IMG/VR virus record: IMGVR_UViG_2711768061_000003
Location: 1-41,806 of that record
DNA from: a virus
Taxonomy: Duplodnaviria; Heunggongvirae; Uroviricota; Caudoviricetes
DNA length: 41,806 nucleotides
Reading direction: 5' to 3' (one strand)
Within the stretch, counting starts at the first letter, position 1, and every line of letters starts with the position of its first letter. Positions 1,355 through 41,806 of the stretch are shown piece by piece. The notes under the pieces are model-generated. The model was given only the letters and a program-made list of their open reading frames with translations, was not told the DNA's origin and ran no database searches. A program made the position numbers and the translations under genes.

Positions 1355-3142
1355 ATGGAACTGAAATACAGACCCGAAATTGATGGGTTGAGAACATTAG
1401 CTGTTTTACCTGTTATCTTTTTTCATGCAGGTGTTCAATGGATTCCTGGCGGCTTTCTTGGAGTAGATGTTTTTTTTGTTATTAGTGGTTTTTTAATTAC
1501 CAGCATTTTGCTGAAAGAATGCAGCAATAGAACATTTACATTCTCTGGGTTTTATGAGAGAAGGGTTCGTAGAATTGCGCCTGCATTAATTCTAATGACA
1601 TCAGTAATATTCATTATATCATTATTTATGATGGTTCCATATGACCTAAAGAATCTAGGCCAATCAGTTGTTGCAACAATTTTTTCAGCAAACAATATAT
1701 TATTGTACTTAACGTCAGGATATTGGTCTACAGCATCTGAATTTAAACCATTGTATCACACATGGAGTCTTGCTGTAGAAGAACAGTATTATCTTGTAGC
1801 CCCTGTAATAATATATATAATTTACTCAATAAATCATAATAAACTAATAAAGAATAGTTTTATGTTTTTACTGGTAATATCAATTGCCAGTTTTTTATAT
1901 GCAACAATTACAACAGTGCATAATATGGAGTTTTCATTTCTTATGCTCCCTTCAAGGGCGTGGGAGATTGCTCTTGGTGGGGTTGCCGCTATTGCGCACT
2001 ATAAAATAAAAATAAAAAGTAACATCTTATCATACCTTGGTTTTTTATTGATAATATCAAGTTACTTCCTTGTGAATGGTAAAAAATCACACCCTGGATT
2101 TGAAACATTATTTCCAGTTCTTGGTGCATGTTTGTTTTTAATGCATTCAAATGCATCTAAAGGAATTGGAAAGATCATGTCAATAAAACCAATTGTGTTA
2201 TGTGGCATGATAAGTTATTCGCTATACCTTTGGCATCAACCTGTTTTTGCATTTATAAGATTAAACTCAAAATTTGAACCGTCAACAACATATTTTATCG
2301 CATCCATTCCTTTAATTTTTATTATATCGTGGATGTCTTATGTTTTTGTAGAAAAACCATTCAGAAACAAGAGAAAAACATCTACAAAAAAAATCTTATC
2401 ATATACATTAGCATTTTCGTTGGTGTTATCAGCATCAGGAATTTTGATGCACAAAACATATGGATTGCAAAATGTCAGGCCTGATCTTGCATATGGAGGA
2501 AATCCACAGGAGTATGTGGATACCCCGAAGAAATTAAAGAATATTGAGTTCTCAGACAATGGAAAGAAAATATTAATCATGGGTAACTCATATGCGAGAG
2601 ATTTAATTAATGCAATATCTACAAAGATTAAAACAAATGATCTTAATATTGTATATTTTGAGGGTGGATGTGATTGGTCAATAGATAATAAAAATAAATT
2701 AGATTACTACTTGAATGACTCAGACATTATTTTATATTCGGAGAATTGGGGTGCAGGCGACTATAATAATAACGTTGAAAAGTTAAAACACTGTTACGAT
2801 TACATAAAGTCAAAAACAACTGCAAAAATGTACTTGATTGGCACAAAAAACTTCGGGTATAACAATAACTTTGCTGTTAACCTGTCTCTTAATGACAGAG
2901 TTTTAGCAAAAACATACCCGCTATCAAGATATATAGAGTTTAACAATAAGGCGAAAATGATTTTTGGCGATGACTACATAGATTTGTTTGACCTTATAAA
3001 AGACAACAATGGAATGGTTAGAGTTTTTGATGAGAATGGCAAATTTTTATCATATGATGCAAACCATCTAACGAAATATGGAGCAAGTTACATTGGAGAA
3101 GTCTTAGACAAAAAAACAGACTTACTTCAATCTTTGAAATAA
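1355..3142 (+). CDS. membrane O-acetyltransferase (acyltransferase-3 family N-terminal domain with SGNH-like C-terminal domain); likely O-antigen or polysaccharide modifying moron
   Basis: 595-aa ORF; N-terminal motifs typical of acyltransferase-3 (DGLRTLAVLPVIFFHAG, VDVFFVISGFLIT); multiple hydrophobic segments followed by a soluble C-terminal domain; markedly AT-rich versus neighbouring genes; sits in the int-tailspike moron slot. Confidence 0.8.
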   Translation: MELKYRPEIDGLRTLAVLPVIFFHAGVQWIPGGFLGVDVFFVISGFLITSILLKECSNRTFTFSGFYERRVRRIAPALILMTSVIFIISLFMMVPYDLKNLGQSVVATIFSANNILLYLTSGYWSTASEFKPLYHTWSLAVEEQYYLVAPVIIYIIYSINHNKLIKNSFMFLLVISIASFLYATITTVHNMEFSFLMLPSRAWEIALGGVAAIAHYKIKIKSNILSYLGFLLIISSYFLVNGKKSHPGFETLFPVLGACLFLMHSNASKGIGKIMSIKPIVLCGMISYSLYLWHQPVFAFIRLNSKFEPSTTYFIASIPLIFIISWMSYVFVEKPFRNKRKTSTKKILSYTLAFSLVLSASGILMHKTYGLQNVRPDLAYGGNPQEYVDTPKKLKNIEFSDNGKKILIMGNSYARDLINAISTKIKTNDLNIVYFEGGCDWSIDNKNKLDYYLNDSDIILYSENWGAGDYNNNVEKLKHCYDYIKSKTTAKMYLIGTKNFGYNNNFAVNLSLNDRVLAKTYPLSRYIEFNNKAKMIFGDDYIDLFDLIKDNNGMVRVFDENGKFLSYDANHLTKYGASYIGEVLDKKTDLLQSLK

Positions 3143-3175
3143 AATATATAATTTATTAGTCGCTCCCCAAAAAAT

Positions 3176-3203
3176 ATACCACCTCTTATGTTGAGGTGGT
3201 ATA
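3176..3203. terminator. putative bidirectional rho-independent terminator between convergent acetyltransferase and tailspike genes
   Basis: Inverted repeat ATACCACCTC-(8 nt)-GAGGTGGTAT flanked by A-run on one side and AT-rich sequence on the other. Confidence 0.5.
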
Positions 3204-3233
3204 TAGATAATAACTATAGACTATTGCGTTTGT

Positions 3234-5408
3234 TTATTTCTGCATCCTTTTTATCTCTCTACGCATATATGCAGCCTCAAGACAAAGTATTTCTTCGTAG
3301 CGTACAGTGTAACCTGAGTGAGCCTCCTGTGCAGCCTGAAGCAGCACCTTAGTGCCGTCGTCTAAAGTATCATACACCGCCTCTGTCGCGGGGGTATCAT
3401 CATAGCAAAGGATGCCGTACTCGAAAGGGTCCACTCCGTGGGCCTCAAATGCCGCCTTGATGTCTTGCGCGATAACCCCAATATGTCTCCGGGCTTTACT
3501 ACCTTTTTCTGCCACGCTTGCCTTTAATTTATAAGCCACATACTGGACGTCCCCCCAGGCGTCGAGAACAGCATCAGGTATTTGTGACTCTTCTGTTTTT
3601 GAGTTTCTGTCTGACGTGACCTGAAAAGCTGTTTGTGTATACCCACCTGACCATGCATATGCTGACGTTCCACATGTTTGAGCGTTCTGCCGACCAGGCC
3701 TAACATAATCTACGCCCCAAACAAGAACCGATGAATAGCCTATTTTCCAGTATGCTATTTTTGATACGCTATCAACTACTTGCTGCTGCTCATACAGGCC
3801 GTTTTTTGTGCGATAGGTCGTTGTTTGATAGCTTCTTGGAAGAAATTGAAGCCCCTGCGTACTTAAGCTCCTTATTGAATTTATAATATCAGGATTGGCG
3901 CCGCCTTGTGTTCTTGCAATAGTCATTCCGTCTGAACAAGCTGGGTGACCATATTTAAGACGAAGATTTTTTATCTCTGTAAGAGACTCTGCCCGGTTTG
4001 TATCGTCTCCTGATTTAAGCAAGTACCAACCAGCCACTGAGCTGTTATGCTCAACTAGGTTTTTAAACACGAATTTAGGGTCTGTGAAGTTTTCTGCGTA
4101 TTGCGGAGGATTCATAAGAACCAGCCCTTTAAACCCTGAATCGGTACGAGAGTTGTTAATGTGCAGCCCATCTATAATGATGTGGTCTGACTGGGTATTT
4201 TCGGTGCCGTCGGTTTTAAGATAAATCAGATTTTGGCCTTTAAAGTATTCAAACCAGCCATCGTTAATCTTAAAGTTAAAGAACTGTTGCAGATAGAAAA
4301 ACGCCCCGCCAAATACCTCGTTTTTCTCAAACCATGGGTTGTTTATGGTGAAGTTAAACCCACCTATAATACGGAAGAACATTCTGGCGCGAGCATCAAG
4401 GAAGATTGGGCTTTCCATGAAGTTTAAATTAAACGCTGCAAAAGGGTTGTTGTCATCCACAGGGGTATCAACAATGTAACCGGAGTCGTTAACCGTTTTG
4501 AAAATTGGGTTATAGTGGTAAACAGCAATCCATGACGCTTTCCATACAGTATGAAAGCCTTGCCATACACAGTTATGAGTGGTAAATGTTGCCACCCAAT
4601 TACCAGCGGCGGCTTCCATGAAAACGTTGGCGCTATTTAAAACATTAGAGCCATCGAAAATAATATTTTTAAAAGTGCAATACTGGAACTGATAAGGACC
4701 ATCTTGCGTGAACATAGTATACCCGCCAGATGATTTAATAGTGGCTTTCCCGTTAGGGCAGATGATATTGAAAGACTTCCAAGCCTCTGTATGTAAAGGT
4801 TTACTTGTCACGTAGACAAATCCAGCAGGAATTAACAATCCAGCATTAGCATTAAGCACAGAAATAACTTTGTCATCCACCTCTGGATTAGCTAAGCCAC
4901 TTATTGCCCCTAAATCTTGTATGGATAGCAGGTCAGAATTTTTATCATGCTGAGTCCTTCTTATTGCATCAAAAAAAGGCTGTTTAACGCCAATTAACGC
5001 ATCACCTTTACTTTCATCATCTAAATATTTACCCGTTTGGGCAAGCTGATTAACGATGTCAATACTGAATTTGTCGGGGTCATATTTCAGTACATTATGG
5101 AAATAGAACTGCTGCGCACCATACGCATCATAAACAGCCATAGAATGGCCTTGTACAGTTACGAATTTGGCAATCTGTCCGTTATATACTGGGTAACCAG
5201 CAGCGTTAATGATGATTGGTTGCGAAACAGGAACGTGAGAACCGTCTTCGTTCTCCACATAAACCTGAATCTGGTTTTCAGGATTTACCGGGTCAGTGTC
5301 AATTTTACCGATATAAATTTTGCCATTGGCTACGGCTTTAAAAGAACGAGCCATAGTGAAGAGTTGCGAAGGCATCGATACGATCACATTGGCTGTAATG
5401 TCTGTCAT
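3234..5408 (-). CDS. tailspike protein: P22-gp9-like N-terminal head-binding domain, divergent central receptor-binding domain, C-terminal intramolecular chaperone (S74-like) domain
   Basis: 724-aa ORF; first ~110 aa ([11 protein letters not shown]...[21 protein letters not shown]...VLKYDPD) match the P22 tailspike N-terminus as recalled; C-terminus contains [26 protein letters not shown], resembling auto-cleaving chaperone domains of endosialidase/tail fibre proteins. Confidence 0.9.
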
Positions 5409-5465: not shown

Positions 5466-5490
5466 TAAAAAAACCCAGCCGAAGCTGGGT
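5466..5490 (-). terminator. putative rho-independent terminator downstream of ant (minus strand)
   Basis: Hairpin ACCCAGC-CGAA-GCTGGGT followed on the minus strand by a U-run (plus-strand A-run 5466-5473). Confidence 0.5.
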
Positions 5491-5508
5491 CGTTGCGTTG
5501 GTTATCTG

Positions 5509-6753: not shown

Positions 6754-7008
6754 ATGGCTAGAGATGATCCGCACTTTAACTTCCGCATGCCTTTGGAAGT
6801 AAGAGAAAAATTAAAATACAGAGCAGAGTCAAATGGTAGATCAATGAACTCAGAATTGTTGCAAATCGTCCAAGATGCTCTATCGAGACCATCTCCTGTA
6901 AAAGGTTATCGCAATGAAGCTGAACGATTAGCCGAGATGCAGGCTGAACAGTTCAAGTCTGTGGTATTTGAGACACTTAAAAACATGTATGGCAAGGATG
7001 CAAAATGA
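6754..7008 (+). CDS. mnt: Mnt repressor
   Basis: 84-aa product MARDDPHFNFRMPLEVREKLKYRAESNGRSMNSELLQIVQDAL..., closely resembling P22 Mnt as recalled; it is the C-terminal part of the 6358-7008 track ORF, whose upstream portion is antisense to ant. Confidence 0.9.
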   Translation: MARDDPHFNFRMPLEVREKLKYRAESNGRSMNSELLQIVQDALSRPSPVKGYRNEAERLAEMQAEQFKSVVFETLKNMYGKDAK

Positions 7009-7586
7009 TCGATTACAACCCAGCAAAAAAAGAAATCATCGCAGCTAAAAAGTGCCTAGAGCAGATGAAATCATCTACAAACCATGATGATTTTGAAATG
7101 CACTGGCGAGAATGTCTTGGGCATATAGAAAAGTCTTTCAGTAAGTTGCTCTGTGCAACAAAGCCGGTTAGTGGAAAATTTAGCAGCCACTTCAACCAAA
7201 AGTTCATGCTTAGAAAAACAGACAAAACACTTGCTTACCTTCACCAAGCAAGAAATGCTGATCATCATTCCACTATGGAAATCTCAAAACTTGAACCTCC
7301 TTATACTACTCTTGGGGCATTTCCGGGAGCAAGAAGCCATTATATTAAAGAGTTAATCATTGATTCAACAGGGAAAATAGCAAAATACGAAGGCGACCCT
7401 ATGATAGTTGAGTTTCATCCAGCAACAACTATGCCTATAACCGTAAGAAACCAAGGCAAAGATTATCCACCTCCAACAGAACATCTTGGCGAAAAGCTTG
7501 TTGATATACATCCATCTGTTCTTGCCTATCTCGGTATACAATTTTATGAAAAATGGATAGATGAGTCGTGTGCAACGTTTAGATAG
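7005..7586 (+). CDS. hypothetical protein, translationally coupled to mnt (ATGA overlap)
   Basis: 193-aa ORF; its ATG overlaps the mnt stop codon; AT-rich; no hydrophobic segments; no motif recognised. Confidence 0.6.
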   Translation: MIDYNPAKKEIIAAKKCLEQMKSSTNHDDFEMHWRECLGHIEKSFSKLLCATKPVSGKFSSHFNQKFMLRKTDKTLAYLHQARNADHHSTMEISKLEPPYTTLGAFPGARSHYIKELIIDSTGKIAKYEGDPMIVEFHPATTMPITVRNQGKDYPPPTEHLGEKLVDIHPSVLAYLGIQFYEKWIDESCATFR

Positions 7587-7803
7587 TTATTTTTGATAAT
7601 TTCAAGTATTTCCTCTTGACTTTGATTTACCCAAACGTGATCACACTCATGAAACCAGATTATGCTTCCTGTTTCGCCTTGTGCAATATAGGTGATCATG
7701 TTTTCATTAACAATTATTACTGAGTTATCATGTGCGCAATTTAGTTTTATCAATTCGCATATCCTATTGTGACAAAGTAACTAGAAAAACTAAAGAGGTT
7801 GGT

Positions 7804-8298
7804 GTGTCTGATTCTATGAGTTACGCTGTGCTAGTTGCCGCAACTCTATTTCTGGGGATAGGGTTGCAGATTGCGTGGTTCTTTTTTTCTAGTTTTATTA
7901 AACGTAAAAGAATTGAATCAAGGATATCTGAGATTTCTATTGCTATAGGGAAAAATGCTGAAAATCCAGAGAATGAGGCCTACGCACTGAATTACCTTAA
8001 AGAAAAGTTTTCCCCTGAAAAATTTGAAAACAGAATTACTGATGCTCTTGGATTGGTAATATCAGTAATTCATATGCCACTAAGTTTGCTGATAACAGTG
8101 TGGTACTTCGCCATGATCGCCGGAAGAATATTTGGTTTCATGAATATAGAGCCTGTAGTTCTTTGGGTTCCAATGATACTGCAATTGTTGTTAAGCGTTG
8201 CTATCTTTATTTTTTCTGTTTTTATAAAAATTGTCTTCGGAAGATACCCCGGAGAAGCGAAGGGATTTAATAAAGAATTCATAAAAACTATAAAATAA
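7804..8298 (+). CDS. small inner-membrane protein, possible SieA-like superinfection exclusion protein
   Basis: ORF with 3-4 predicted hydrophobic helices ([54 protein letters not shown]); GTG at 7804 is preceded by AAGAGG with 5-nt spacing (alternative ATG at 7816); occupies the slot between mnt and the gp16-like gene where P22 carries sieA. Confidence 0.55.
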
Positions 8299-12269: not shown

Positions 12270-12728
12270 CTATCTCCCGTGATTCAGGAAGTCGATTAGT
12301 TCTTCGCGTGTGGCGCTGTAAAAAGTCACGTCATCCACGCCTTTGAAGTATTTCTTGATGGTTCCTACACGCTTAAGGCCAATCATTGCGCAGTACATCT
12401 GACCGTGGCGGAATTTGCGCGCAGCGAACGATGTGACGCACTGAACGGTGGTGTTAGTCAGAATGTATCGCCAGAACGCCAGCCCGATTTCCTTGCTGAA
12501 GCCGCGAATCTCTGGCAGGTACATGGCGTGGCAATCGAATGTCAGCGGCTGAATCTCCTGATAGTAAACAATGCCGCCAAACTGACCGTGCACGTTAACC
12601 TCAAAGTAACGGCATTCAGGCTTGTAGTCGTATCCATCACCGTTGTTGCTCCCGGCAATAATGTCAGGGTGATTTCCGACTGCTTCGATCAGGTCGATGT
12701 TTCGCGTTGGTTTGAACTGAATCATCAC
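12270..12728 (-). CDS. P22 gp14-like virion protein
   Basis: 152-aa ORF between tail needle and gp7-like genes, as in the P22 order 26-14-7. Confidence 0.65.
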
Positions 12729-13573
12729 TGCTCCGCGATTATCTTGATGGTTGTGGCAGTAAACGCCGCACCATTTGACTGGATGGTTAACGTACTGCCA
12801 TTTGTGGCAAGAAATCCGTCTTTATCCACGCTGAAGAACGTGGCTAACAGGATGTTATCGGTTGTTGTCGCCGCATTACGACTGCTGACCAGTGTGTCAG
12901 GAACAGAGCCGGAAAAGGTTAGCTGCATTGATCTGTTGGTGGTTCCGCTGGGCCACGTCCCGACAATCGACAGCTTGAAGAACAAGGTTTTGTTCTCGTT
13001 GAACACAACCATCTTGTTGTTAACGGTGTCGAAGAATGGTGACAACGTGCCGGATGACGGCGTGAGCGTTTTCAGCAGGCTAACAAGGTTGGTCGGCGCT
13101 GTCGGGATGGTTACTGATACGCCAGAGTAAACAACCTCTGACTTCTTGCGAGTAGTGGCATACTCCAGAGCATCGATGCGCGTTTCATGGTCTGAAACCT
13201 GCGATTCCAGCGACTGAACTCTGGTATCAAGCGACGCAATATCGCTTTCATTCTGAGCGATTCGCGTTTCATGTTCCTGAAGAGTTGATTCTGCCTGGCT
13301 GATTCGCTCCTCATGATTAACAAGCGTTGCTTCCGCAGCAGAAATTCGCTGCTCATGGTCAGCGAGAATCACATCCTGCTCATCGTTCCTGACTTGTGCG
13401 TCATAAGCGCCCTGTCCGGCCTCGTTGGCCTTGTTCGCCACGTTACCAACATCAGTACCCTGTGCGATAACGTACAACAGATATGACTGCGAGAAGATAT
13501 TGCGTGGAAGGACTGATGTATCGAGCCGCGTAGCCTGGATGATTACCGGCACATTGAGATTCGAATCCGCCAT
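12725..13573 (-). CDS. tail needle protein (gp26-like N-terminus with C-terminal knob-type domain)
   Basis: 282-aa ORF; N-terminus [43 protein letters not shown] matches the P22 gp26 N-terminus as recalled; coiled-coil heptad region, then a ~130-aa Ser/Thr-rich C-terminal domain absent from P22 gp26 (Sf6-type architecture). Confidence 0.85.
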
Positions 13574-14991
13574 TACTCAATCCTTATCTGGCAGCCAGAC
13601 AGAGTGACAGGTGACTTCGTGATAACGCGCAATTTGAAGCCAATGTTTTTCCTGATGCGCCCTACTTTCTTCCACAAAACGCGTTTGTCGTAAACGAACG
13701 GTTCATTCTGCTCAATCATCTGCTCACGCCCGTAATTGATGCCGTCAGTGGTTGCAGAGAGGAACAGGCGGTCAGCATACTGCGCAACGCCAGTTGAAGA
13801 TTCAACTTCAAGGTCGAAAACTCTGGCGTTATCCGCTTTGAACAACGGAGTAAACAACAGGTGTTCCTGTTGCTTGTCGTACTGGCTGCTGATATCGAAC
13901 TGCAATTTGCCGATAACCGATTCCAGCTTATCTCCGCACGTTATCTGATTGCCTTCGTAAATGAAGTCGATAGCGCGGTACACATCGTCATACAGGCCTG
14001 TTTTCAGCACACACCATTGCGGACCATTGGCGCTTGAAGATGCGTCGTACACGAGAACATGGCGCGGAAGGTGGATAATCAGCAACTCATGCGCATCAAA
14101 GCGCAACGATTCCATCACGCCATCAGCCAGTTCATCAGCAGTGTAGGAGCGGAGAATTTTCTCAATGCTCGCGCTGGCGATTGGTGACACCTGACCGGAG
14201 CCGATGATGTACACAGACGGCGCACCTGTTGCCGGATTGCTGATGAACGCATACGAATCAGCAAACGGCGTTTTGCAGTAAGTCCCGGCAATGCCTTTCT
14301 GCACCATCAGCGATGGCTGTGCAACATACAAAGCGGCACCAACGGTGGTTGCCCCAGTCAGGGAAAAATATTCAATCGTCGATGAGCCAAAGCAGACGAT
14401 GAAGTCTCGCCATGTTCCGATGCCGATGATACCGTCCGGCTGCGATTCTGCGCGATATTGTGCGCTGTATCGGTCAGGATGCGATTCGTCTTCAAGGTCA
14501 GTGATAAACCATGAATCAGTGCCGTCTTTTGACCACGCATAACGCCCACGCAAGCGCGTAATGTCGCGAACCGAACCTAACTCATACTGCGTGAATCCGC
14601 TGTCTGTAGGCCAGTTTGAGACGGTTTTAACCGTGCCATCATAGCGGTATTCGACCAGTTGCCCGTTAACACCTACCGCCTGTGATGTCCGACCATGTGC
14701 CATTGATACGCGACCACTTCCGGCAACATCACCGACTTCACTTTCGCCTTTGTACAGCTTGCCACCACACACGCGATAAACAGCATTCTGCGCCATGTTG
14801 TACTCGACGCCACGCGATACGCCGTTCACATCAGAACGTTTGGCAATGCCCGGGAATGAGCGAAGATATCCGCTGCTGTTAAGGATTTCTTTTGGTGTAG
14901 CCAACATATTCACTGGCAGATAGTCGATATAGTCGGCGTTTCGGAAGTCTTTGCCGACACCTTTCATAAGCGGAAGTTGCTGAATCGGCAT
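13573..14991 (-). CDS. tail accessory/hub protein, P22 gp10-like
   Basis: 472-aa ORF, same length as P22 gp10, in syntenic position. Confidence 0.8.
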
Positions 14992-15000
14992 TTATTCACC

Positions 15001-15462
15001 TCACGTACTCGGATCATCTTTCTCGATGTAAAACCGATTCCACGTAAACGCGCTTTTGTTACCACTACCGCGAGGCATGTCATTTCGCCGCTCAAGTGGT
15101 GGTATTTTGGTTAAAGCGATACAGATTGTCTGATATGCACTGTCAGCAGCGGTAAGGAGAGCGTCTGACGGCTGAATGACGTTATCCATGCACACTTGCA
15201 CAGCGAGTTTCAAAGCGACGCCATCATTTGCCCATGCAGGGATACCTGAATCATCGTCAGGTAACGGCATGATGCCGTTTTCTGTATCAGCAAACTGATA
15301 CCCAAGCTCGATACCTTTAGCCTGCCATGCTGCCATCATGTCTTCGAGGTCATTAATGGCATCTTCAATTGCCTGAGGGTCAGCATCTGTCAACGTGGCA
15401 TTGGAATACAGCCCGGCTTTTCGTAAAGCCTTTAGAACGAGATCACCCTTCGTTTTCGCCAT
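15001..15462 (-). CDS. head completion/tail adaptor protein, P22 gp4-like
   Basis: 153-aa ORF immediately upstream (in transcription order) of the gp10-like gene. Confidence 0.75.
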   Translation of the reverse strand: MAKTKGDLVLKALRKAGLYSNATLTDADPQAIEDAINDLEDMMAAWQAKGIELGYQFADTENGIMPLPDDDSGIPAWANDGVALKLAVQVCMDNVIQPSDALLTAADSAYQTICIALTKIPPLERRNDMPRGSGNKSAFTWNRFYIEKDDPST

Positions 15463-16944: not shown

Positions 16945-17838
16945 TTATTTTTTTGCCTTTTTAGCGGCGAAATACGGCGTCCAGTCACCAGTTTCCAGCA
17001 CCTTGGCTTTCAATTTGTCGAGGTTGTTGATTACTGCGCCGTTGCTCCCCTTAACTGTCGGGGTTGTGGCTGCCGTGGTTTTTGCTTTTGGCATGATTCT
17101 GGCCTTCGATTCGATACGTTCCAGCAGACGACCAATTGCTACGGGGTTGGTAGCTTCTGCCAGTTGCTTGCGCAGTTCAGCGTTGCGACCGAGTGCCAGA
17201 ACAACGATTTCCGGCTTCTCTGACTCAAACAGGATCGCGTTTTGTGTCTCGATGGGGATTTCCTCGAGTACGGCCTGTTCTGCTTCCTGATAGCCAGGAA
17301 CTTTGAGAGCCTTAACACGTTGCTGATATTTGGATAATCGCTCTTGATAGGCAGCCTGAAGCTCCTGCTCCTTCTGCTTGCGAGCCATCTCCTGTTGCTG
17401 GTACTTGCCGTTATCCTCTGCCCACTTAGCCATGCGTTGCTGGTAGATTTCTTCATCGAAACCGATGTCCTCATCATCCAGTTTTGGCATTCGCGGTGGT
17501 TGAGTGATTACCGGCTGCTGCTCGACGGGTTTCTGAGACTGACGCATCAGCTCTTTTAGCTCGCGGTCTTTCTCTTTAATCGTCTTGCGCAGGTGTTTTA
17601 CCAGTCCATGCTCTGCGCTATCTTCGCTGGTTGGCGAATCCAGCTTTTCGTCACCAAAGTAGAATTCCTGCTCTGATTCGTCGTCATCAGTTTCAGTAGC
17701 TTCCTCTGCATCATTGCCAGAGGACTCACTGCCATCTTCTGTTTCGACTTCTTCAGCCAGTTCGACATCATCAGGAATCTGCTCTGACGCGTCGGTTTCG
17801 ATTTCAACTTCTGGTGTGTTTTCTGCCATCTGGTCCAT
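16945..17838 (-). CDS. scaffolding protein
   Basis: 297-aa highly acidic, helix/coiled-coil-rich protein (Glu/Gln/Lys-rich) between portal and coat genes. Confidence 0.7.
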   Translation of the reverse strand: MDQMAENTPEVEIETDASEQIPDDVELAEEVETEDGSESSGNDAEEATETDDDESEQEFYFGDEKLDSPTSEDSAEHGLVKHLRKTIKEKDRELKELMRQSQKPVEQQPVITQPPRMPKLDDEDIGFDEEIYQQRMAKWAEDNGKYQQQEMARKQKEQELQAAYQERLSKYQQRVKALKVPGYQEAEQAVLEEIPIETQNAILFESEKPEIVVLALGRNAELRKQLAEATNPVAIGRLLERIESKARIMPKAKTTAATTPTVKGSNGAVINNLDKLKAKVLETGDWTPYFAAKKAKK

Positions 17839-17928
17839 TTGTTACCCCTGTTTACTCGATGTTCAGCCCATCGGAAGGCAATAGGGTGCCAGGCCTCATA
17901 AAGACAGCCATTGCACGTTATGGGTTAA

Positions 17929-20145
17929 TTACTGCTGTGGTTGTTGCTGAGTTGATTTTTGCAGGATGCTGCTGATGTCCATGCGCTGCGCATGGCCATG
18001 TGCCTGACTTTTCAGGACAAGCTCTGCATCAGCACGGGCATTATCTCCTTGCTGTTGCTGGAACTGTCCGAGCAGTTTCAGCGCCTCACGGATATCAGAT
18101 TTTTGCTGGCTATCGGCAGATGCGAGGATTTTCACAACATTTGCCGCAGCAACCTGAGCATCCGTCTGTGCCTGGAATGCTTTAACCTGAATGGCTGCTT
18201 GTTCGTTCTGCGCTTTCTGCAATTCAGCCTGACCAGCAAGAAGCTGACCTTGCGCAGCAACCATAGCCGGATCTGGCTGACTGGCCTGTTGTTGTTTCGC
18301 CTGCTCAACCATCTGCTGTTCTTCTGGTGTTCTCGGCTTGATAACTCCAGACAGAAGCAACTGATTGCGGTTGTATTCTTTAAGGTCGTCCATCCCTTCG
18401 CCGTCCATATTGTCGAGAATCATCGACGATACAAGGTCGTGCTTCGGCGTTCCTGGTGGGATAAGTGCCAGCATGGAAAGTAACGACTTAACCGTTGCAT
18501 CACGGCGAGTAGCGAACGACTGACCAACATCGACAGTCACTTCATAGTTACCCTGCGAAAGGTCGTTAAGCGCGATAACCTGCCCTGTCTGACGGTCAAC
18601 CACTTCACCAGTCATCAGCGCCACGTCATCGCTGCCGTCCTCATTAACGATACGCATCGGCGTATCACTGCCATAGACCTCACGCGCCATAGAAAGCCAC
18701 ACAACGCCAGCGCGGCGCATGGATTTAGCCATGTTGTCCATGTAGATATAGGACTGCGTGTCCATCCGGTTAAAAATGCTATCAACGGTATCGGTGGCGA
18801 CGTTGCTCGGCATGTTCTCAAGCTGCGACGCACCTGTAATTTGCTGAATAGCCGTTCCGGTGTACTGCAATAGCCCGGCAAGAGCAGGAGGCATTTGTGT
18901 CGGAGGTGTCCAGCCAGCAACCTGAGCCTCTGAAATGACCGTTCCGTTTTTGTCCTTCTTGCTGGTCATGGGAAGAACTGCAGGTCTTTTCTTATTCCTC
19001 TCTGCCCAGTGATTCATTAATGGACCGGGAATGAAATCAACATCCACGATAGGAATACCATCACCGCCAGCCTGAGTAGCGTTATCTGCAATCATGGAAA
19101 CCATCAGGTTCTCAAGACGCTGTGCATCCATCGCTTTTGCTGCGTGGCCTTCAATTCGCTCCTGATTATCAACAAATGAGCGACGCCCATATACCGGGAT
19201 GAGAGGAATATGTTCACCCGGAATACGCTTCGGTTCTTCCAGCCATTCAGCGCCAGACAGAAGACCGCAATAAACGCGGCGCTTCTTCACCGTTCGCTCG
19301 CCAATCAGTTCGAATGCACCATCGGTCAGCTCGTCGACAATATCTTTGATTTGCTCTTCATCATAGATTGCCGTTTCTCCGCTAACAGGGTTACGCCATG
19401 CTGTGAGCTTCACCTTCTCTATGCGTACTTCGTAGTAGCGCCCAACATAGATAGCATCTGGCGTTGACCAGTCATATTGAGTGCCAGTGTCATCACGAGA
19501 GAGGCTTGCCGCGATGGAATCAGGGTATTCAGCCTCGAACGCTTTAGGCGTCATGGAGAACATTTCCATAGCCCACATAGCATCAGAGCGGTCATATTGC
19601 TTGCTGTCCTGATCGAAGAAGACGCATGTCGCTGGGTCGTAAACAGGAAGAAGGCTGATGCGTCGCTGCTCGTTACTCGGATCCATTTCATCTTCGTAAT
19701 CGGCACACATGCGGAAACAACCGAATCCGCCCGTTACAGCATCATCAAATGCGTTATCACACGCTTCGCCACCGGATGTTTCCTGATAGTCAGCGCGGAA
19801 TTTGCCGTTCATCTTTTCGGCTAACGCTTCCGATGCCTTGTCGTCCTTCGGCCTGAATTTAACGCTGATGCGATTCTGTCGATACTCGCCAATGATGCGA
19901 TCACATTCACGGGCAATCTTATTCAGTTCAAAGCGCGGGTAATGCTCAAACCTGCCTTCATCAAATGAGTAACCAGCGTTTGTGCTGCCTTCCCACTGTG
20001 CGCCGGATACCCGGACGAAACGTTGAGCCTCAATAATCTGCTCACGCATATCCTGCGTTGCTGACCAGGCATTATCAAAGTTGCACAGCACCTTGCGATG
20101 CCAGTCAGCCATCTTTCTATCATCAGCCATCATCCAACTCCGCAA
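17929..20145 (-). CDS. portal protein
   Basis: 738-aa ORF downstream of terminase large subunit; size as P22 gp1 (725 aa); Gln-rich C-terminal helical barrel-like tail. Confidence 0.9.
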   Translation of the reverse strand: MRSWMMADDRKMADWHRKVLCNFDNAWSATQDMREQIIEAQRFVRVSGAQWEGSTNAGYSFDEGRFEHYPRFELNKIARECDRIIGEYRQNRISVKFRPKDDKASEALAEKMNGKFRADYQETSGGEACDNAFDDAVTGGFGCFRMCADYEDEMDPSNEQRRISLLPVYDPATCVFFDQDSKQYDRSDAMWAMEMFSMTPKAFEAEYPDSIAASLSRDDTGTQYDWSTPDAIYVGRYYEVRIEKVKLTAWRNPVSGETAIYDEEQIKDIVDELTDGAFELIGERTVKKRRVYCGLLSGAEWLEEPKRIPGEHIPLIPVYGRRSFVDNQERIEGHAAKAMDAQRLENLMVSMIADNATQAGGDGIPIVDVDFIPGPLMNHWAERNKKRPAVLPMTSKKDKNGTVISEAQVAGWTPPTQMPPALAGLLQYTGTAIQQITGASQLENMPSNVATDTVDSIFNRMDTQSYIYMDNMAKSMRRAGVVWLSMAREVYGSDTPMRIVNEDGSDDVALMTGEVVDRQTGQVIALNDLSQGNYEVTVDVGQSFATRRDATVKSLLSMLALIPPGTPKHDLVSSMILDNMDGEGMDDLKEYNRNQLLLSGVIKPRTPEEQQMVEQAKQQQASQPDPAMVAAQGQLLAGQAELQKAQNEQAAIQVKAFQAQTDAQVAAANVVKILASADSQQKSDIREALKLLGQFQQQQGDNARADAELVLKSQAHGHAQRMDISSILQKSTQQQPQQ

Positions 20146-40558: not shown

Positions 40559-41806
40559 CTATATTGCTGAAGGTACAGGCGTTTCCATAACTATTTGCTC
40601 GCGTTTTTTACTCAAGAAGAAAATGCCAAATAGCAACATCAGGCAGACAATACCCGAAATTGCGAAGAAAACTGTCTGGTAGCCTGCGTGGTCAAAGAGT
40701 ATCCCAGTCGGCGTTGAAAGCAGCACAATCCCAAGCGAACTGGCAATTTGAAAACCAATCAGAAAGATCGTCGACGACAGGCGCTTATCAAAGTTTGCCA
40801 CGCTGTATTTGAAGACGGATATGACACAAAGTGGAACCTCAATGGCATGTAACAACTTCACTAATGAAATAATCCAGGGGTTAACGAACAGCGCGCAGGA
40901 AAGGATACGCAACGCCATAATCACAACTCCGATAAGTAATGCATTTTTTGGCCCTACCCGATTCACAAAGAAAGGAATAATCGCCATGCACAGCGCTTCG
41001 AGTACCACCTGGAATGAGTTGAGATAACCATACAGGCGCGTTCCTACATCGTGTGATTCGAATAAACCTGCATAAAAGACAGGAAAAAGTTGTTGATCAA
41101 AAATGTTATAGAAAGACCACGTCCCCACAATAAATATGACGAAAACCCAGAAGTTTCGATCCTTGAAAACTGCGATAAAATCCTCTTTTTTTACCCCTCC
41201 CGCATCTGCCGCTACGCACTGGTGATCCTTATCTTTAAAACGCATGTTGATCATCATAAATACAGCGCCAAATAGCGAGACCAACCAGAAGTTGATATGG
41301 GGACTGATACTAAAAAATATGCCGGCAAAGAACGCGCCAATAGCATAGCCAAAAGATCCCCAGGCGCGCGCTGTTCCATATTCGAAATGAAAATTTCGCG
41401 CCATTTTTTCGGTGAAGCTATCAAGCAAACCGCATCCCGCCAGATACCCCAAGCCAAAAAATAGCGCCCCCAGAATTAGACCTACAGAAAAATTGCTTTG
41501 CAGTAACGGTTCATAAACGTAAATCATAAACGGTCCGGTCAAGACCAGGATGAAACTCATACACCAGATGAGCGGTTTCTTCAGACCGAGTTTATCCTGA
41601 ACGATGCCGTAGAACATCATAAATAGAATGCTGGTAAACTGGTTGACCGAATAAAGTGTACCTAATTCCGTCCCTGTCAACCCTAGATGTCCTTTCAGCC
41701 AAATAGCGTATAACGACCACCACAGCGACCAGGAAATAAAAAAGAGAAATGAGTAACTGGATGCAAAACGATAGTACGCATTTCTGAATGGAATATTCAG
41801 TGCCAT
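40559..41806 (-). CDS. cscB: LacY-family oligosaccharide:H+ symporter, sucrose permease CscB-like (host gene)
   Basis: 415-aa 12-TM protein with LacY-family sequence pattern; start codon at the window edge (41806); the csc locus is known to lie near argW in sucrose-positive E. coli. Confidence 0.8.
   Translation of the reverse strand: MALNIPFRNAYYRFASSYSFLFFISWSLWWSLYAIWLKGHLGLTGTELGTLYSVNQFTSILFMMFYGIVQDKLGLKKPLIWCMSFILVLTGPFMIYVYEPLLQSNFSVGLILGALFFGLGYLAGCGLLDSFTEKMARNFHFEYGTARAWGSFGYAIGAFFAGIFFSISPHINFWLVSLFGAVFMMINMRFKDKDHQCVAADAGGVKKEDFIAVFKDRNFWVFVIFIVGTWSFYNIFDQQLFPVFYAGLFESHDVGTRLYGYLNSFQVVLEALCMAIIPFFVNRVGPKNALLIGVVIMALRILSCALFVNPWIISLVKLLHAIEVPLCVISVFKYSVANFDKRLSSTIFLIGFQIASSLGIVLLSTPTGILFDHAGYQTVFFAISGIVCLMLLFGIFFLSKKREQIVMETPVPSAI

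What the first reader, a model, noticed from the sequence alone, without database searches (positions are those of the whole stretch)
3234..5408. Chimeric tailspike: P22-type head-binding N-terminus, divergent receptor domain, C-terminal auto-chaperone
The first ~110 residues match the P22 gp9 head-binding domain, but the rest is unrelated to the P22 endorhamnosidase. The C-terminus ([26 protein letters not shown]) looks like the intramolecular chaperone domain of endosialidases and tail fibres that is cleaved off after trimer folding. This implies a receptor-binding module swapped in from a different phage lineage, with unknown glycan specificity.
Basis: partly seen in the sequence, partly recalled or inferred. 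Interest (0 to 1): 0.6.

Follow-up and report, generated by a model that had tools for sequence, protein, structure and literature searches.

The report
Modular P22-type prophage tailspike, self-cleaving chaperone
This is an intact tailspike gene of a P22-like E. coli prophage, built from a standard virion-docking head, a rare sugar-cutting beta-helix module also found in two unrelated lytic phages, and a self-cleaving folding domain; the design is well known and only its sugar target is unknown.

Summary
Window 3234..5408 (-) is a 724-aa ORF with Pfam Head_binding at aa 1-113 (E 2.8e-66) and Peptidase_S74 at aa 599-658 (E 6.8e-13).

- The P22/Sf6-like part runs to about aa 145-150, not 110.
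- The crossover lies in a linker motif shared by all partners.
- Residues 131-723 are 88% identical to the siphovirus DS8 tail fibre and 85% to the N4-like phage HK2 fibre. This shows directly that the module moves between lineages.
- The S74 Ser599/Lys604 dyad is invariant and aligns with the catalytic Ser/Lys of endoNF and the GA-1 chaperone.

The architecture is not new. The CUS-3 endosialidase tailspike has the same head-binding, catalytic and chaperone layout and the same gene neighbourhood. About 50 of the 120 best database clusters carry both domains. The exact protein is already in NCBI as "phage tailspike protein [Escherichia coli]". Two things remain open: the glycan specificity, and the chemistry of a rare beta-helix family with no characterised member.

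Verdict: a new member of a known kind, of low-to-moderate interest.

The parts
3234..5408 (-). Complete tailspike CDS: 724 aa, 81.0 kDa, stop codon at 3234-3236.
   Evidence: ORF list; molecular weight; the exact protein is encoded on at least 18 public contigs and is in NCBI as 'phage tailspike protein [Escherichia coli]'.
5070..5408 (-). Head-binding (virion-docking) domain, aa 1-113.
   Evidence: Pfam PF09008, E 2.8e-66; 96% identical to CUS-3 siaK1 aa 1-114; matches P22 gp9 and Sf6 gp14 N-terminal structures.
4959..5069 (-). Sf6-type linker/neck, aa 114-150. It is diverged from every partner, and the recombination zone lies here.
   Evidence: Closest to Sf6 in protein sliding windows (0.55-0.70 identity) and in nucleotide windows (53-73% identity over nt 331-450). 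CUS-3 similarity is lost after nt 330. DS8/HK2 similarity begins at nt 451.
4905..5009 (-). Conserved linker/cap motif, aa 134-168 ([34 protein letters not shown]). It is shared by Sf6, DS8 and HK2 and is the likely crossover site.
   Evidence: Four-way alignment. The DNA matches overlap here: Sf6 nt 1-471, HK2 from nt 412, DS8 from nt 451.
3939..4931 (-). Predicted right-handed parallel beta-helix, the receptor-binding and presumed depolymerase domain, aa ~160-490. Invariant acidic residues are E361, E387, D400, D408, D443 and E453.
3615..3938 (-). C-terminal stalk of the mature protein, aa 491-598. It ends in the conserved pre-cleavage motif [19 protein letters not shown].
   Evidence: Aligns to the pre-cleavage segments of 9vvr, 3gw6 and 6eu4. 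pLDDT is low in the monomer model, as expected for an intertwined trimer region. dN/dS 0.094.
3237..3614 (-). Peptidase S74 C-terminal intramolecular chaperone domain, aa 599-724. This is the predicted released fragment of 14.1 kDa.
   Evidence: Pfam PF13884 at aa 599-658; phmmer hits to 9vvr (E 1.4e-37), GA-1 3gud (2.7e-24) and endoNF 3gw6 (7.6e-18); dN/dS 0.081.
3597..3614 (-). Predicted autoproteolytic site S599-D-R-N-S-K604 (Ser codon 3612-3614, Lys codon 3597-3599). The predicted cut is between T598 and S599.
   Evidence: S599, D600 and K604 are invariant in 19-21 homologs. S599 aligns to residue 1 of the released GA-1 fragment (SDERHK) and to an Ala in 3gw6. K604 aligns to a Lys in both. 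Reading those 3gw6 residues as S911A and K916 of endoNF rests on my own knowledge.
3174..3204 (-). Terminator-like hairpin just downstream of the tailspike stop, between the convergent tailspike and acyltransferase genes.
   Evidence: Pattern scan: 12-bp stem followed by a T run. This is a consensus match only.
5472..5491 (-). Terminator-like hairpin between ant and the tailspike start.
   Evidence: Pattern scan. This is a consensus match only. That late antiterminated transcription reads through it, as in P22, is inferred from my knowledge of P22.
1355..3142 (+). Context: a 595-aa AT3+SGNH acyltransferase with low GC, likely a receptor-glycan O-acetyltransferase (lysogenic conversion).
   Evidence: Pfam PF01757 + PF19040; GC 0.30-0.36; same position as neuO in CUS-3 and oac in Sf6.
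12725..15462 (-). Context: the tail hub that the head-binding domain should dock onto. It comprises gp4-like (15001..15462), gp10-like (13573..14991) and a needle with an Sf6-type knob (12725..13573).
   Evidence: Pfam P22_Tail-4, Phage_stabilise and Phage_tail_NK.

Best explanation
This gene encodes the functional tailspike of a P22-like temperate phage, in the CUS-3/Sf6 subgroup. The prophage lies in E. coli between the argW/yfdC side and a LacY-family permease gene. The protein is a three-part mosaic.

(1) aa 1-113 form the P22-type head-binding domain, followed by an Sf6-type linker to about aa 150. By homology to P22 and Sf6, this part docks trimers onto the gp4/gp10 tail hub that the same prophage encodes (inferred).

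(2) aa ~160-598 form a right-handed beta-helix plus a C-terminal stalk. This part binds a host surface polysaccharide and very probably cleaves it, letting the virion work down to the outer membrane. The fold is predicted with confidence. The activity and the substrate are inferred.

(3) aa 599-724 form a Peptidase S74 intramolecular chaperone. It drives trimerisation of the C-terminal stalk and then excises itself using the Ser599/Lys604 dyad. That would leave a mature spike of about 67 kDa and a fragment of about 14 kDa. The dyad and the homology are shown. Cleavage itself is inferred.

Parts (2) and (3) travel together as one cassette. The same cassette is fused to a different anchor (Tail_spike_N) in siphovirus DS8 and in N4-like phage HK2. 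The crossover falls in a short linker motif that all these proteins share.

The adjacent AT3+SGNH acyltransferase probably O-acetylates the same glycan in lysogens. That would block superinfection, as oac does in Sf6 and neuO does in CUS-3 (inferred). The substrate is most likely an O-antigen. This is a weak inference.
For: The ORF is intact. Both Pfam domains score well above their gathering cut-offs. The N-terminus is 96% identical to CUS-3 siaK1, and it matches Sf6 gp14 in PDB 7sg7 at E 3.3e-88 over aa 1-173.

The prophage encodes P22-type gp4, gp10, needle, portal, coat and ejection proteins.

aa 131-723 are 88% identical to DS8 gp20 and 85% to the HK2 fibre, without gaps in the DS8 alignment. 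In DS8 and HK2 the anchor is PF18668 instead.

Breakpoints map to nt ~330-450, within a shared GDxLIGVK...RTQHDKN...SIxDLGA motif.

S599, D600 and K604 are invariant and align with residue 1 of the released GA-1 chaperone and with the corresponding Ala/Lys positions of 3gw6.

dN/dS is about 0.09 in the helix, stalk and chaperone alike. The exact sequence recurs on at least 18 contigs.

The gene order int, acyltransferase, tailspike, ant, mnt is the same as in CUS-3 and Sf6. A review describes this same mode of module exchange (PMC5380687).
Against: No experiment supports cleavage, trimerisation, enzymatic activity or substrate. The structure model is a monomer. It is poor for aa 1-158 because the alignment mixes anchors, and poor for aa 492-605.

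No characterised homolog of the central domain exists, and no literature was found on the DS8 or HK2 receptor.
Confidence: 0.85

Rival explanations
1. The architecture is as described, but the receptor is a capsule or exopolysaccharide (K antigen or colanic acid) rather than an O-antigen. The neighbouring acyltransferase would then modify that capsule, as neuO does for the K1 capsule in CUS-3.
For: The best structural neighbours are capsule depolymerases of Acinetobacter and Klebsiella phages and a Vibrio polysaccharide lyase. The closest architectural precedent, CUS-3, targets a capsule and carries a capsule O-acetyltransferase at the same position. The top PHROG is named for colanic acid degradation, but it matches only aa 1-200.
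Against: DS8 was isolated on Shigella flexneri, which to my knowledge lacks a group 1-4 capsule. From my own knowledge, AT3+SGNH fusions such as Salmonella OafA and OafB are typically O-antigen acetyltransferases. According to the BASEL paper (PMC11990801), Gamaleyavirus spikes typically target O-antigen. None of these points is decisive.
Confidence: 0.25
2. The beta-helix is a binding-only or glycan-modifying module (for example a deacetylase) rather than a chain-cleaving depolymerase.
Against: Several acidic residues are invariant down to 35-40% identity and cluster on consecutive coils: E361, E387, D400, D408, D443 and E453. To my knowledge, the characterised tailspikes of P22-like phages (P22, Sf6, HK620, CUS-3) are all endoglycosidases. 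Strong purifying selection fits either reading.
Confidence: 0.12
3. The S74 domain is retained only as a folding or trimerisation domain and is not cleaved off in this protein.
For: Cleavage was not tested here.
Against: The Ser/Lys dyad, the Asp that follows it and the pre-cleavage motif are invariant across homologs down to about 36% identity. They align exactly with residue 1 of the released GA-1 fragment and with the corresponding positions in the endoNF chaperone structure 3gw6.
Confidence: 0.07
4. The gene is a relic in a defective prophage with no current function.
For: The central module is absent from all 5,426 complete E. coli genomes, so it is rare.
Against: The ORF is full-length, dN/dS is about 0.09, and the identical protein occurs on at least 18 contigs. 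The window also holds a complete set of P22-like virion genes, a DnaB-like replication helicase, a repressor and an integrase.
Confidence: 0.03

Closest known systems
Endosialidase tailspike siaK1 of E. coli K1 prophage CUS-3 (P22-like; Stummeyer et al. 2006, cited in PMC5380687 and in the CUS-3 record)
   Same: It has the same three-part design: a P22-type head-binding domain (96% identity over aa 1-114), a swapped-in catalytic module, and a homologous C-terminal S74 chaperone (35% identity, same VTSD...K site). The gene neighbourhood is also the same: a receptor-modifying acetyltransferase, the tailspike, ant and mnt. The rest of the phage genome is closely related, 94.6% identical over 60% of the 24.6-kb query window:5409-30000.
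   Different: The central module of CUS-3 is an endosialidase and shows no similarity to this beta-helix. The CUS-3 protein is 981 aa against 724 aa here. The substrate of CUS-3 is known (polysialic acid), and here it is unknown.
Shigella phage Sf6 tailspike gp14 (endorhamnosidase; PDB 7sg7, 2vbk)
   Same: Sf6 gp14 is the best full N-terminal match, aa 1-173 at E 3.3e-88, covering the head-binding domain, the linker and the cap motif. It has the same beta-helix fold class. An O-antigen acetylase sits next to its tailspike and integrase.
   Different: There is no sequence similarity beyond aa 173. Sf6 gp14 is 623 aa, and the only similarity to it found here is N-terminal: no C-terminal S74 region aligns.
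Tail fibre gp20 of Shigella phage DS8 (Deseoctovirus, siphovirus) and the tail fibre of Escherichia phage HK2 (Gamaleyavirus, Schitoviridae)
   Same: They carry the same beta-helix, stalk and S74 cassette, 88% and 85% identical over aa 131-723, including the dyad.
   Different: Their N-terminal anchor is Tail_spike_N PF18668 (TSP1/gp66 type) instead of Head_binding. Both are lytic phages of other morphotypes. No paper in the searched library describes the receptor specificity of either.
Intramolecular chaperone domains of endoNF (K1F; PDB 3gw6), the GA-1 neck appendage (3gud) and T5 pb1 (4uw8); MEROPS/Pfam Peptidase S74
   Same: The sequences are homologous (E 7.6e-18, 2.7e-24 and 5.5e-05). 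The Ser/Lys dyad spacing and the C-terminal position are the same.
   Different: They are attached to a different mature protein. Cleavage has not been demonstrated here.
Beta-helix tailspike depolymerases, e.g. Acinetobacter phage vB_ApiP_P1 (6e1r) and AS12 gp42 (6eu4), and phi29 gp12
   Different: Identity is 14% or less in the helix, and the hosts, anchors and substrates differ.

Membership tests
P22-like phage tailspike (gp9 family, Pfam Head_binding PF09008) | An N-terminal head-binding domain matching the family profile above its curated cut-off. | tested here: met
   221 bits against a cut-off of 24, full profile 1-113. Also matches the P22 and Sf6 N-terminal structures.
P22-like phage tailspike (gp9 family, Pfam Head_binding PF09008) | Encoded in a P22-like genome that supplies the gp4/gp10/gp26 tail hub, downstream of the ejection-protein and immI region. 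| tested here: met
   P22_Tail-4, Phage_stabilise, needle, portal, coat, gp16, gp20, ant, arc and mnt are all present. The window is 95% identical to phages E212, CUS-3 and Kapi1 over 47-63% of a 24.6-kb query.
P22-like phage tailspike (gp9 family, Pfam Head_binding PF09008) | A homotrimeric right-handed beta-helix receptor domain with endoglycosidase activity. | tested here: inconclusive
   [not shown]
Peptidase S74 / C-terminal intramolecular chaperone domain (CIMCD) | A profile match above the curated cut-off, located at the C-terminus. | tested here: met
   PF13884, 49 bits against a cut-off of 22, at aa 599-658 of 724. Homology extends to aa 723 against 9vvr, 3gud and 3gw6.
Peptidase S74 / C-terminal intramolecular chaperone domain (CIMCD) | A catalytic Ser-x4-Lys dyad at the start of the domain (Ser911/Lys916 in endoNF, from my own knowledge). 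| tested here: met
   S599 and K604 are invariant in 19-21 homologs. They align to residue 1 of the GA-1 fragment and to the matching Ala and Lys in 3gw6.
Peptidase S74 / C-terminal intramolecular chaperone domain (CIMCD) | Autoproteolytic release after trimer folding. | not testable with these tools
   Needs expression and SDS-PAGE or mass spectrometry. The predicted products are 66.9 and 14.1 kDa.
P22 gp9 / Sf6 gp14 endorhamnosidase catalytic domains | Sequence homology of the central domain to the endorhamnosidase beta-helix. | tested here: not met
   P22 hits end at about aa 130 and Sf6 hits at aa 173. The central-domain query finds nothing else in the PDB at E up to 10.
Endosialidase (CUS-3 and K1F type catalytic domain) | Sequence homology of the central region to the endosialidase catalytic domain. 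| tested here: not met
   BLASTP against CUS-3 siaK1 aligns only aa 1-114 and aa 569-723. 3gw6 aligns only at aa 569-722.
Pectin-lyase-like right-handed beta-helix superfamily | A right-handed parallel beta-helix fold. | tested here: met
   [not shown]
Pectin-lyase-like right-handed beta-helix superfamily | A sequence-profile match to a known beta-helix, pectate-lyase or GH28-type family. | tested here: not met
   There is no Pfam or NCBIfam hit in aa 114-598. phmmer finds only 11 clusters among 1.84 billion representatives, all from the same small family.

The most novel reading that the evidence does not exclude
The beta-helix, stalk and S74 cassette may define a previously uncharacterised depolymerase family. 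It is rare: 11 clusters at 50% identity among 1.84 billion representatives, 3 of 2.9 million IMG/VR contigs, and none of 5,426 complete E. coli genomes. Its glycan specificity or chemistry may be new. Because DS8 grows on Shigella flexneri 2a, it could be a second route to the S. flexneri-type O-antigen, not homologous in sequence to the Sf6 endorhamnosidase. The cassette circulates among temperate P22-like, siphoviral and N4-like phages through a conserved linker that acts as a universal recombination joint.
Probability: 0.3. Interest if true: 0.45.

Novelty: new member of a known kind. Interest (0 to 1): 0.25.

Why it matters
The value is mainly practical. The tailspike fixes the host range of this prophage. 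The cassette it shares with DS8 and HK2 is a clean natural example of one receptor module working on three different virion types, which is useful for engineering phage or tailocin host range. Its substrate is unknown, and the helix family has no characterised member, so identifying the glycan would add one depolymerase specificity to the catalogue. The finding does not challenge current understanding: modular exchange behind the P22 head-binding domain, and S74 auto-chaperones on beta-helix spikes, are both established.

Tried and rejected
- Full-length or module-level matches in 5,426 complete E. coli genomes: only the head-binding part matches by megablast, and the central plus C-terminal module gives no match even with blastn at word size 11.
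- A scan of 185,579 species-representative genomes with patterns from the central-domain alignment found no confirmed relative.
- NCBIfam gives no family for the tailspike.
- Sequence search of the central domain against the PDB finds only the shared Sf6 linker.
- Literature on DS8, Deseoctovirus, or PDB 9vvr as a lead to receptor or specificity returned nothing relevant.
It was rerun without them. The resulting model is unusable for aa 1-158 and weak for aa 492-605, so I did not interpret those parts structurally.
- I could not derive the host O-serogroup. The tools return at most 10 kb around the gene, and by my own estimate from E. coli K-12 the O-antigen cluster lies about 350 kb from argW.
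- I rejected an endosialidase-like specificity suggested by the Pfam name 'chaperone of endosialidase', because only the chaperone part is homologous.
- I rejected the PHROG label 'colanic acid degradation', because that match covers only aa 1-200.
- I rejected the weak EB_dh Pfam hit (E 0.031, below its cut-off) as noise.
Full report

Yes. The ORF list shows one ATG-to-stop reading frame of 724 aa at exactly 3234..5408 on the minus strand. Pfam places Head_binding (PF09008) on aa 1-113 over the whole profile, with E 2.8e-66 and 221 bits against a cut-off of 24. It places Peptidase_S74 (PF13884, 'chaperone of endosialidase') on aa 599-658, with E 6.8e-13 and 49 bits against a cut-off of 22.

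Against PDB sequences, the N-terminus matches Sf6 gp14 over aa 1-173 (E 3.3e-88) and P22 gp9 over aa 1-130. The C-terminus (aa 556-723) matches a tail spike protein (9vvr), the GA-1 neck-appendage chaperone (3gud) and the endoNF chaperone construct (3gw6). A query of aa 112-600 alone finds nothing in the PDB except the Sf6 linker.

**2. Anatomy.**

A four-way alignment and sliding-window identities show a three-part mosaic.
- nt 1-330 (aa 1-110) is the widely shared head-binding domain. In the sliding windows over nt 241-330 it is 83-100% identical to CUS-3 and Sf6. At protein level it is 96% identical to CUS-3 siaK1 over aa 1-114, and the DNA is 90-96% identical to many E. coli P22-like phages and prophages.
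- nt 331-450 (aa 111-150) is a diverged, Sf6-type linker with 53-73% nucleotide identity. Similarity to CUS-3 is lost here.
- From nt 451 onward the gene follows the tail-fibre genes of Shigella phage DS8 (86.5% nucleotide identity) and Escherichia phage HK2 (83.8%) to the end.

At protein level, aa 131-723 are 88% identical to DS8 gp20 without a gap, and 85% identical to the HK2 fibre. The changeover lies inside a motif present in all four proteins, GDxLIGVK...A(I/V)xRTQHDKN...SIxDLGA (aa 134-168). This makes it a natural site for homologous crossover, which is an inference.

DS8 is a siphovirus (Deseoctovirus) and HK2 is an N4-like Gamaleyavirus. In both, and in several metagenomic and Providencia homologs, the same cassette follows a Tail_spike_N (PF18668) anchor instead of Head_binding.

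**3. The central domain.**

AlphaFold2 was run on a 19-sequence alignment. It gives pLDDT of about 90 for aa 160-490 as a stack of short strands. The N-terminus is poor because the alignment mixes different anchors, and aa 492-605 are weak, as expected for a region that is intertwined in the trimer.

The sequence family is very small:
- phmmer against 1.84 billion cluster representatives finds 11 clusters.
- tblastn against 50,697 phage records finds only DS8, HK2 and an Aeromonas phage at 40% identity.
- IMG/VR holds three full-length loci, one of which appears to be DS8 itself by its 44,605-bp length and 90% identity.
- Complete E. coli genomes and species-representative genomes hold none.

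Residues invariant down to 35-40% identity include E361, E387, D400, D408, D443 and E453, together with W359, W385, H416, N418 and N419 on consecutive coils. These are candidate active-site residues.

**4. The C-terminal domain.**

S599, D600 and K604 are invariant in all homologs. In the phmmer alignments, S599 pairs with residue 1 of the crystallised, already released GA-1 chaperone (SDERHK). It also pairs with an Ala in 3gw6. From my own knowledge, that Ala is the S911A substitution of the endoNF construct, and the Lys aligned to K604 is K916.

The preceding segment, [19 protein letters not shown], matches the pre-cleavage segment of 9vvr and 6eu4. The predicted cut between T598 and S599 would give a 66.9-kDa mature chain and a 14.1-kDa fragment.

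**5. Is it functional, and in what context?**

Against DS8, dN/dS is 0.09 for the helix, 0.094 for the stalk and 0.081 for the chaperone, with dS of 0.55-0.89. This means strong purifying selection in both lineages and a transfer that is not recent.

The identical protein is encoded on at least 18 public contigs. It is in NCBI under several accessions as 'phage tailspike protein [Escherichia coli]'. Its 90% cluster also holds E. marmotae proteins and DS8 gp20. Variants with the same architecture at 81-94% identity exist.

The window is a P22-like prophage. It encodes an integrase, the AT3+SGNH acyltransferase, the tailspike, ant, arc and mnt, SieA, gp16, gp20, a needle with an Sf6-type knob, gp10, gp4, coat, portal, terminase, a DnaB-like helicase and an S24 repressor. 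It is about 95% identical to phages E212, CUS-3 and Kapi1 over about half to two-thirds of a 24.6-kb query. On public contigs the integrase end abuts yfdC and mlaA, and in a related complete genome a tRNA-Arg gene lies between yfdC and the integrase. The far end of the window is a LacY-family permease gene.

**6. Mechanism.**

*Shown:* the domain composition, the conserved dyad, the fold class, the selection pattern, the virion context and the cross-lineage sharing of the cassette.

*Inferred from the P22, Sf6, endoNF and phi29 literature, as summarised in PMC5380687 and from my own knowledge:*
- Trimers dock by their N-terminal domains onto the gp4/gp10 hub.
- The beta-helix binds and cleaves the host surface polysaccharide.
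- The S74 domain nucleates trimer folding of the C-terminal stalk and then removes itself.
- The convergent, low-GC acyltransferase (GC 0.30-0.36) modifies the same glycan in lysogens, as oac does in Sf6 and neuO does in CUS-3.

The substrate is unresolved. An O-antigen is favoured because DS8 grows on S. flexneri, because Gamaleyavirus spikes usually target O-antigen (PMC11990801), and because AT3+SGNH enzymes are typically O-antigen acetylases (my own knowledge). A capsule cannot be excluded.

**7. Comparison with what is known, and novelty.**

The CUS-3 endosialidase tailspike is an exact architectural precedent. It has the same head-binding domain (96% identity), a foreign catalytic module and a homologous S74 chaperone (35% identity), and the same int, acetyltransferase, tailspike, ant gene order. 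A review uses CUS-3, HK620, Sf6 and P22 as the standard example of tailspike module exchange (PMC5380687).

About 50 of the 120 best-scoring 90%-identity clusters in the large protein database carry both PF09008 and PF13884 around other central domains. The finding is therefore a new, uncharacterised member of a known kind. What is particular to it is a rare beta-helix family with no characterised member, and unusually clear evidence that one cassette serves three virion types.

An S74 domain is present, and there is no full-length identity to a tailspike of known specificity.

**8. Verdict.**

Interest is 0.25. The most novel reading still open is a new depolymerase specificity or family, possibly an alternative enzyme for S. 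flexneri-type O-antigen. I put its probability at about 0.3 and its interest, if true, at about 0.45.

Noticed in passing
[not shown]
   Followed up: partly
L004 8267..10227 (Logan SRR35919076 contig): On this otherwise identical prophage contig, only a 231-aa SGNH fragment of the acyltransferase is called. No gene is called across the AT3 half, so the conversion gene may be disrupted in that strain.
   Followed up: no
window 12725..13573 (-): The tail needle carries an Sf6-type knob domain (PF16532, E 8e-116) rather than a plain P22-type tip. The secondary (protein) receptor step may therefore resemble that of Sf6.
   Followed up: no
window 40559..41806 (-), and window position 1: The right end of the window is a 415-aa LacY-family sugar symporter (PF01306, E 1e-193), presumably host flank and cscB-like by my own recollection. 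The window starts exactly at the integrase ATG and contains no tRNA gene, so the attachment-site tRNA lies outside it.
   Followed up: partly
window 7005..7586 (+) and 7732..8298 (+): Two genes lie between mnt and gp16. The second corresponds to a SieA superinfection-exclusion gene (PF26849) on the public contigs. The first, 193 aa, has no family hit.
   Followed up: no
H88: Aeromonas phage AsC4_1 (PV158446.1) 17681..18958: A homolog 40% identical to the central beta-helix domain is annotated as 'outer membrane protein'. This is probably a mis-annotated tailspike, and it extends the small family outside the Enterobacterales.
   Followed up: no
window 5472..5491 (-) and 3174..3204 (-): Terminator-like hairpins flank the tailspike gene on both sides. 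The downstream one sits between the convergent tailspike and acyltransferase genes and could act in both directions.
   Followed up: no
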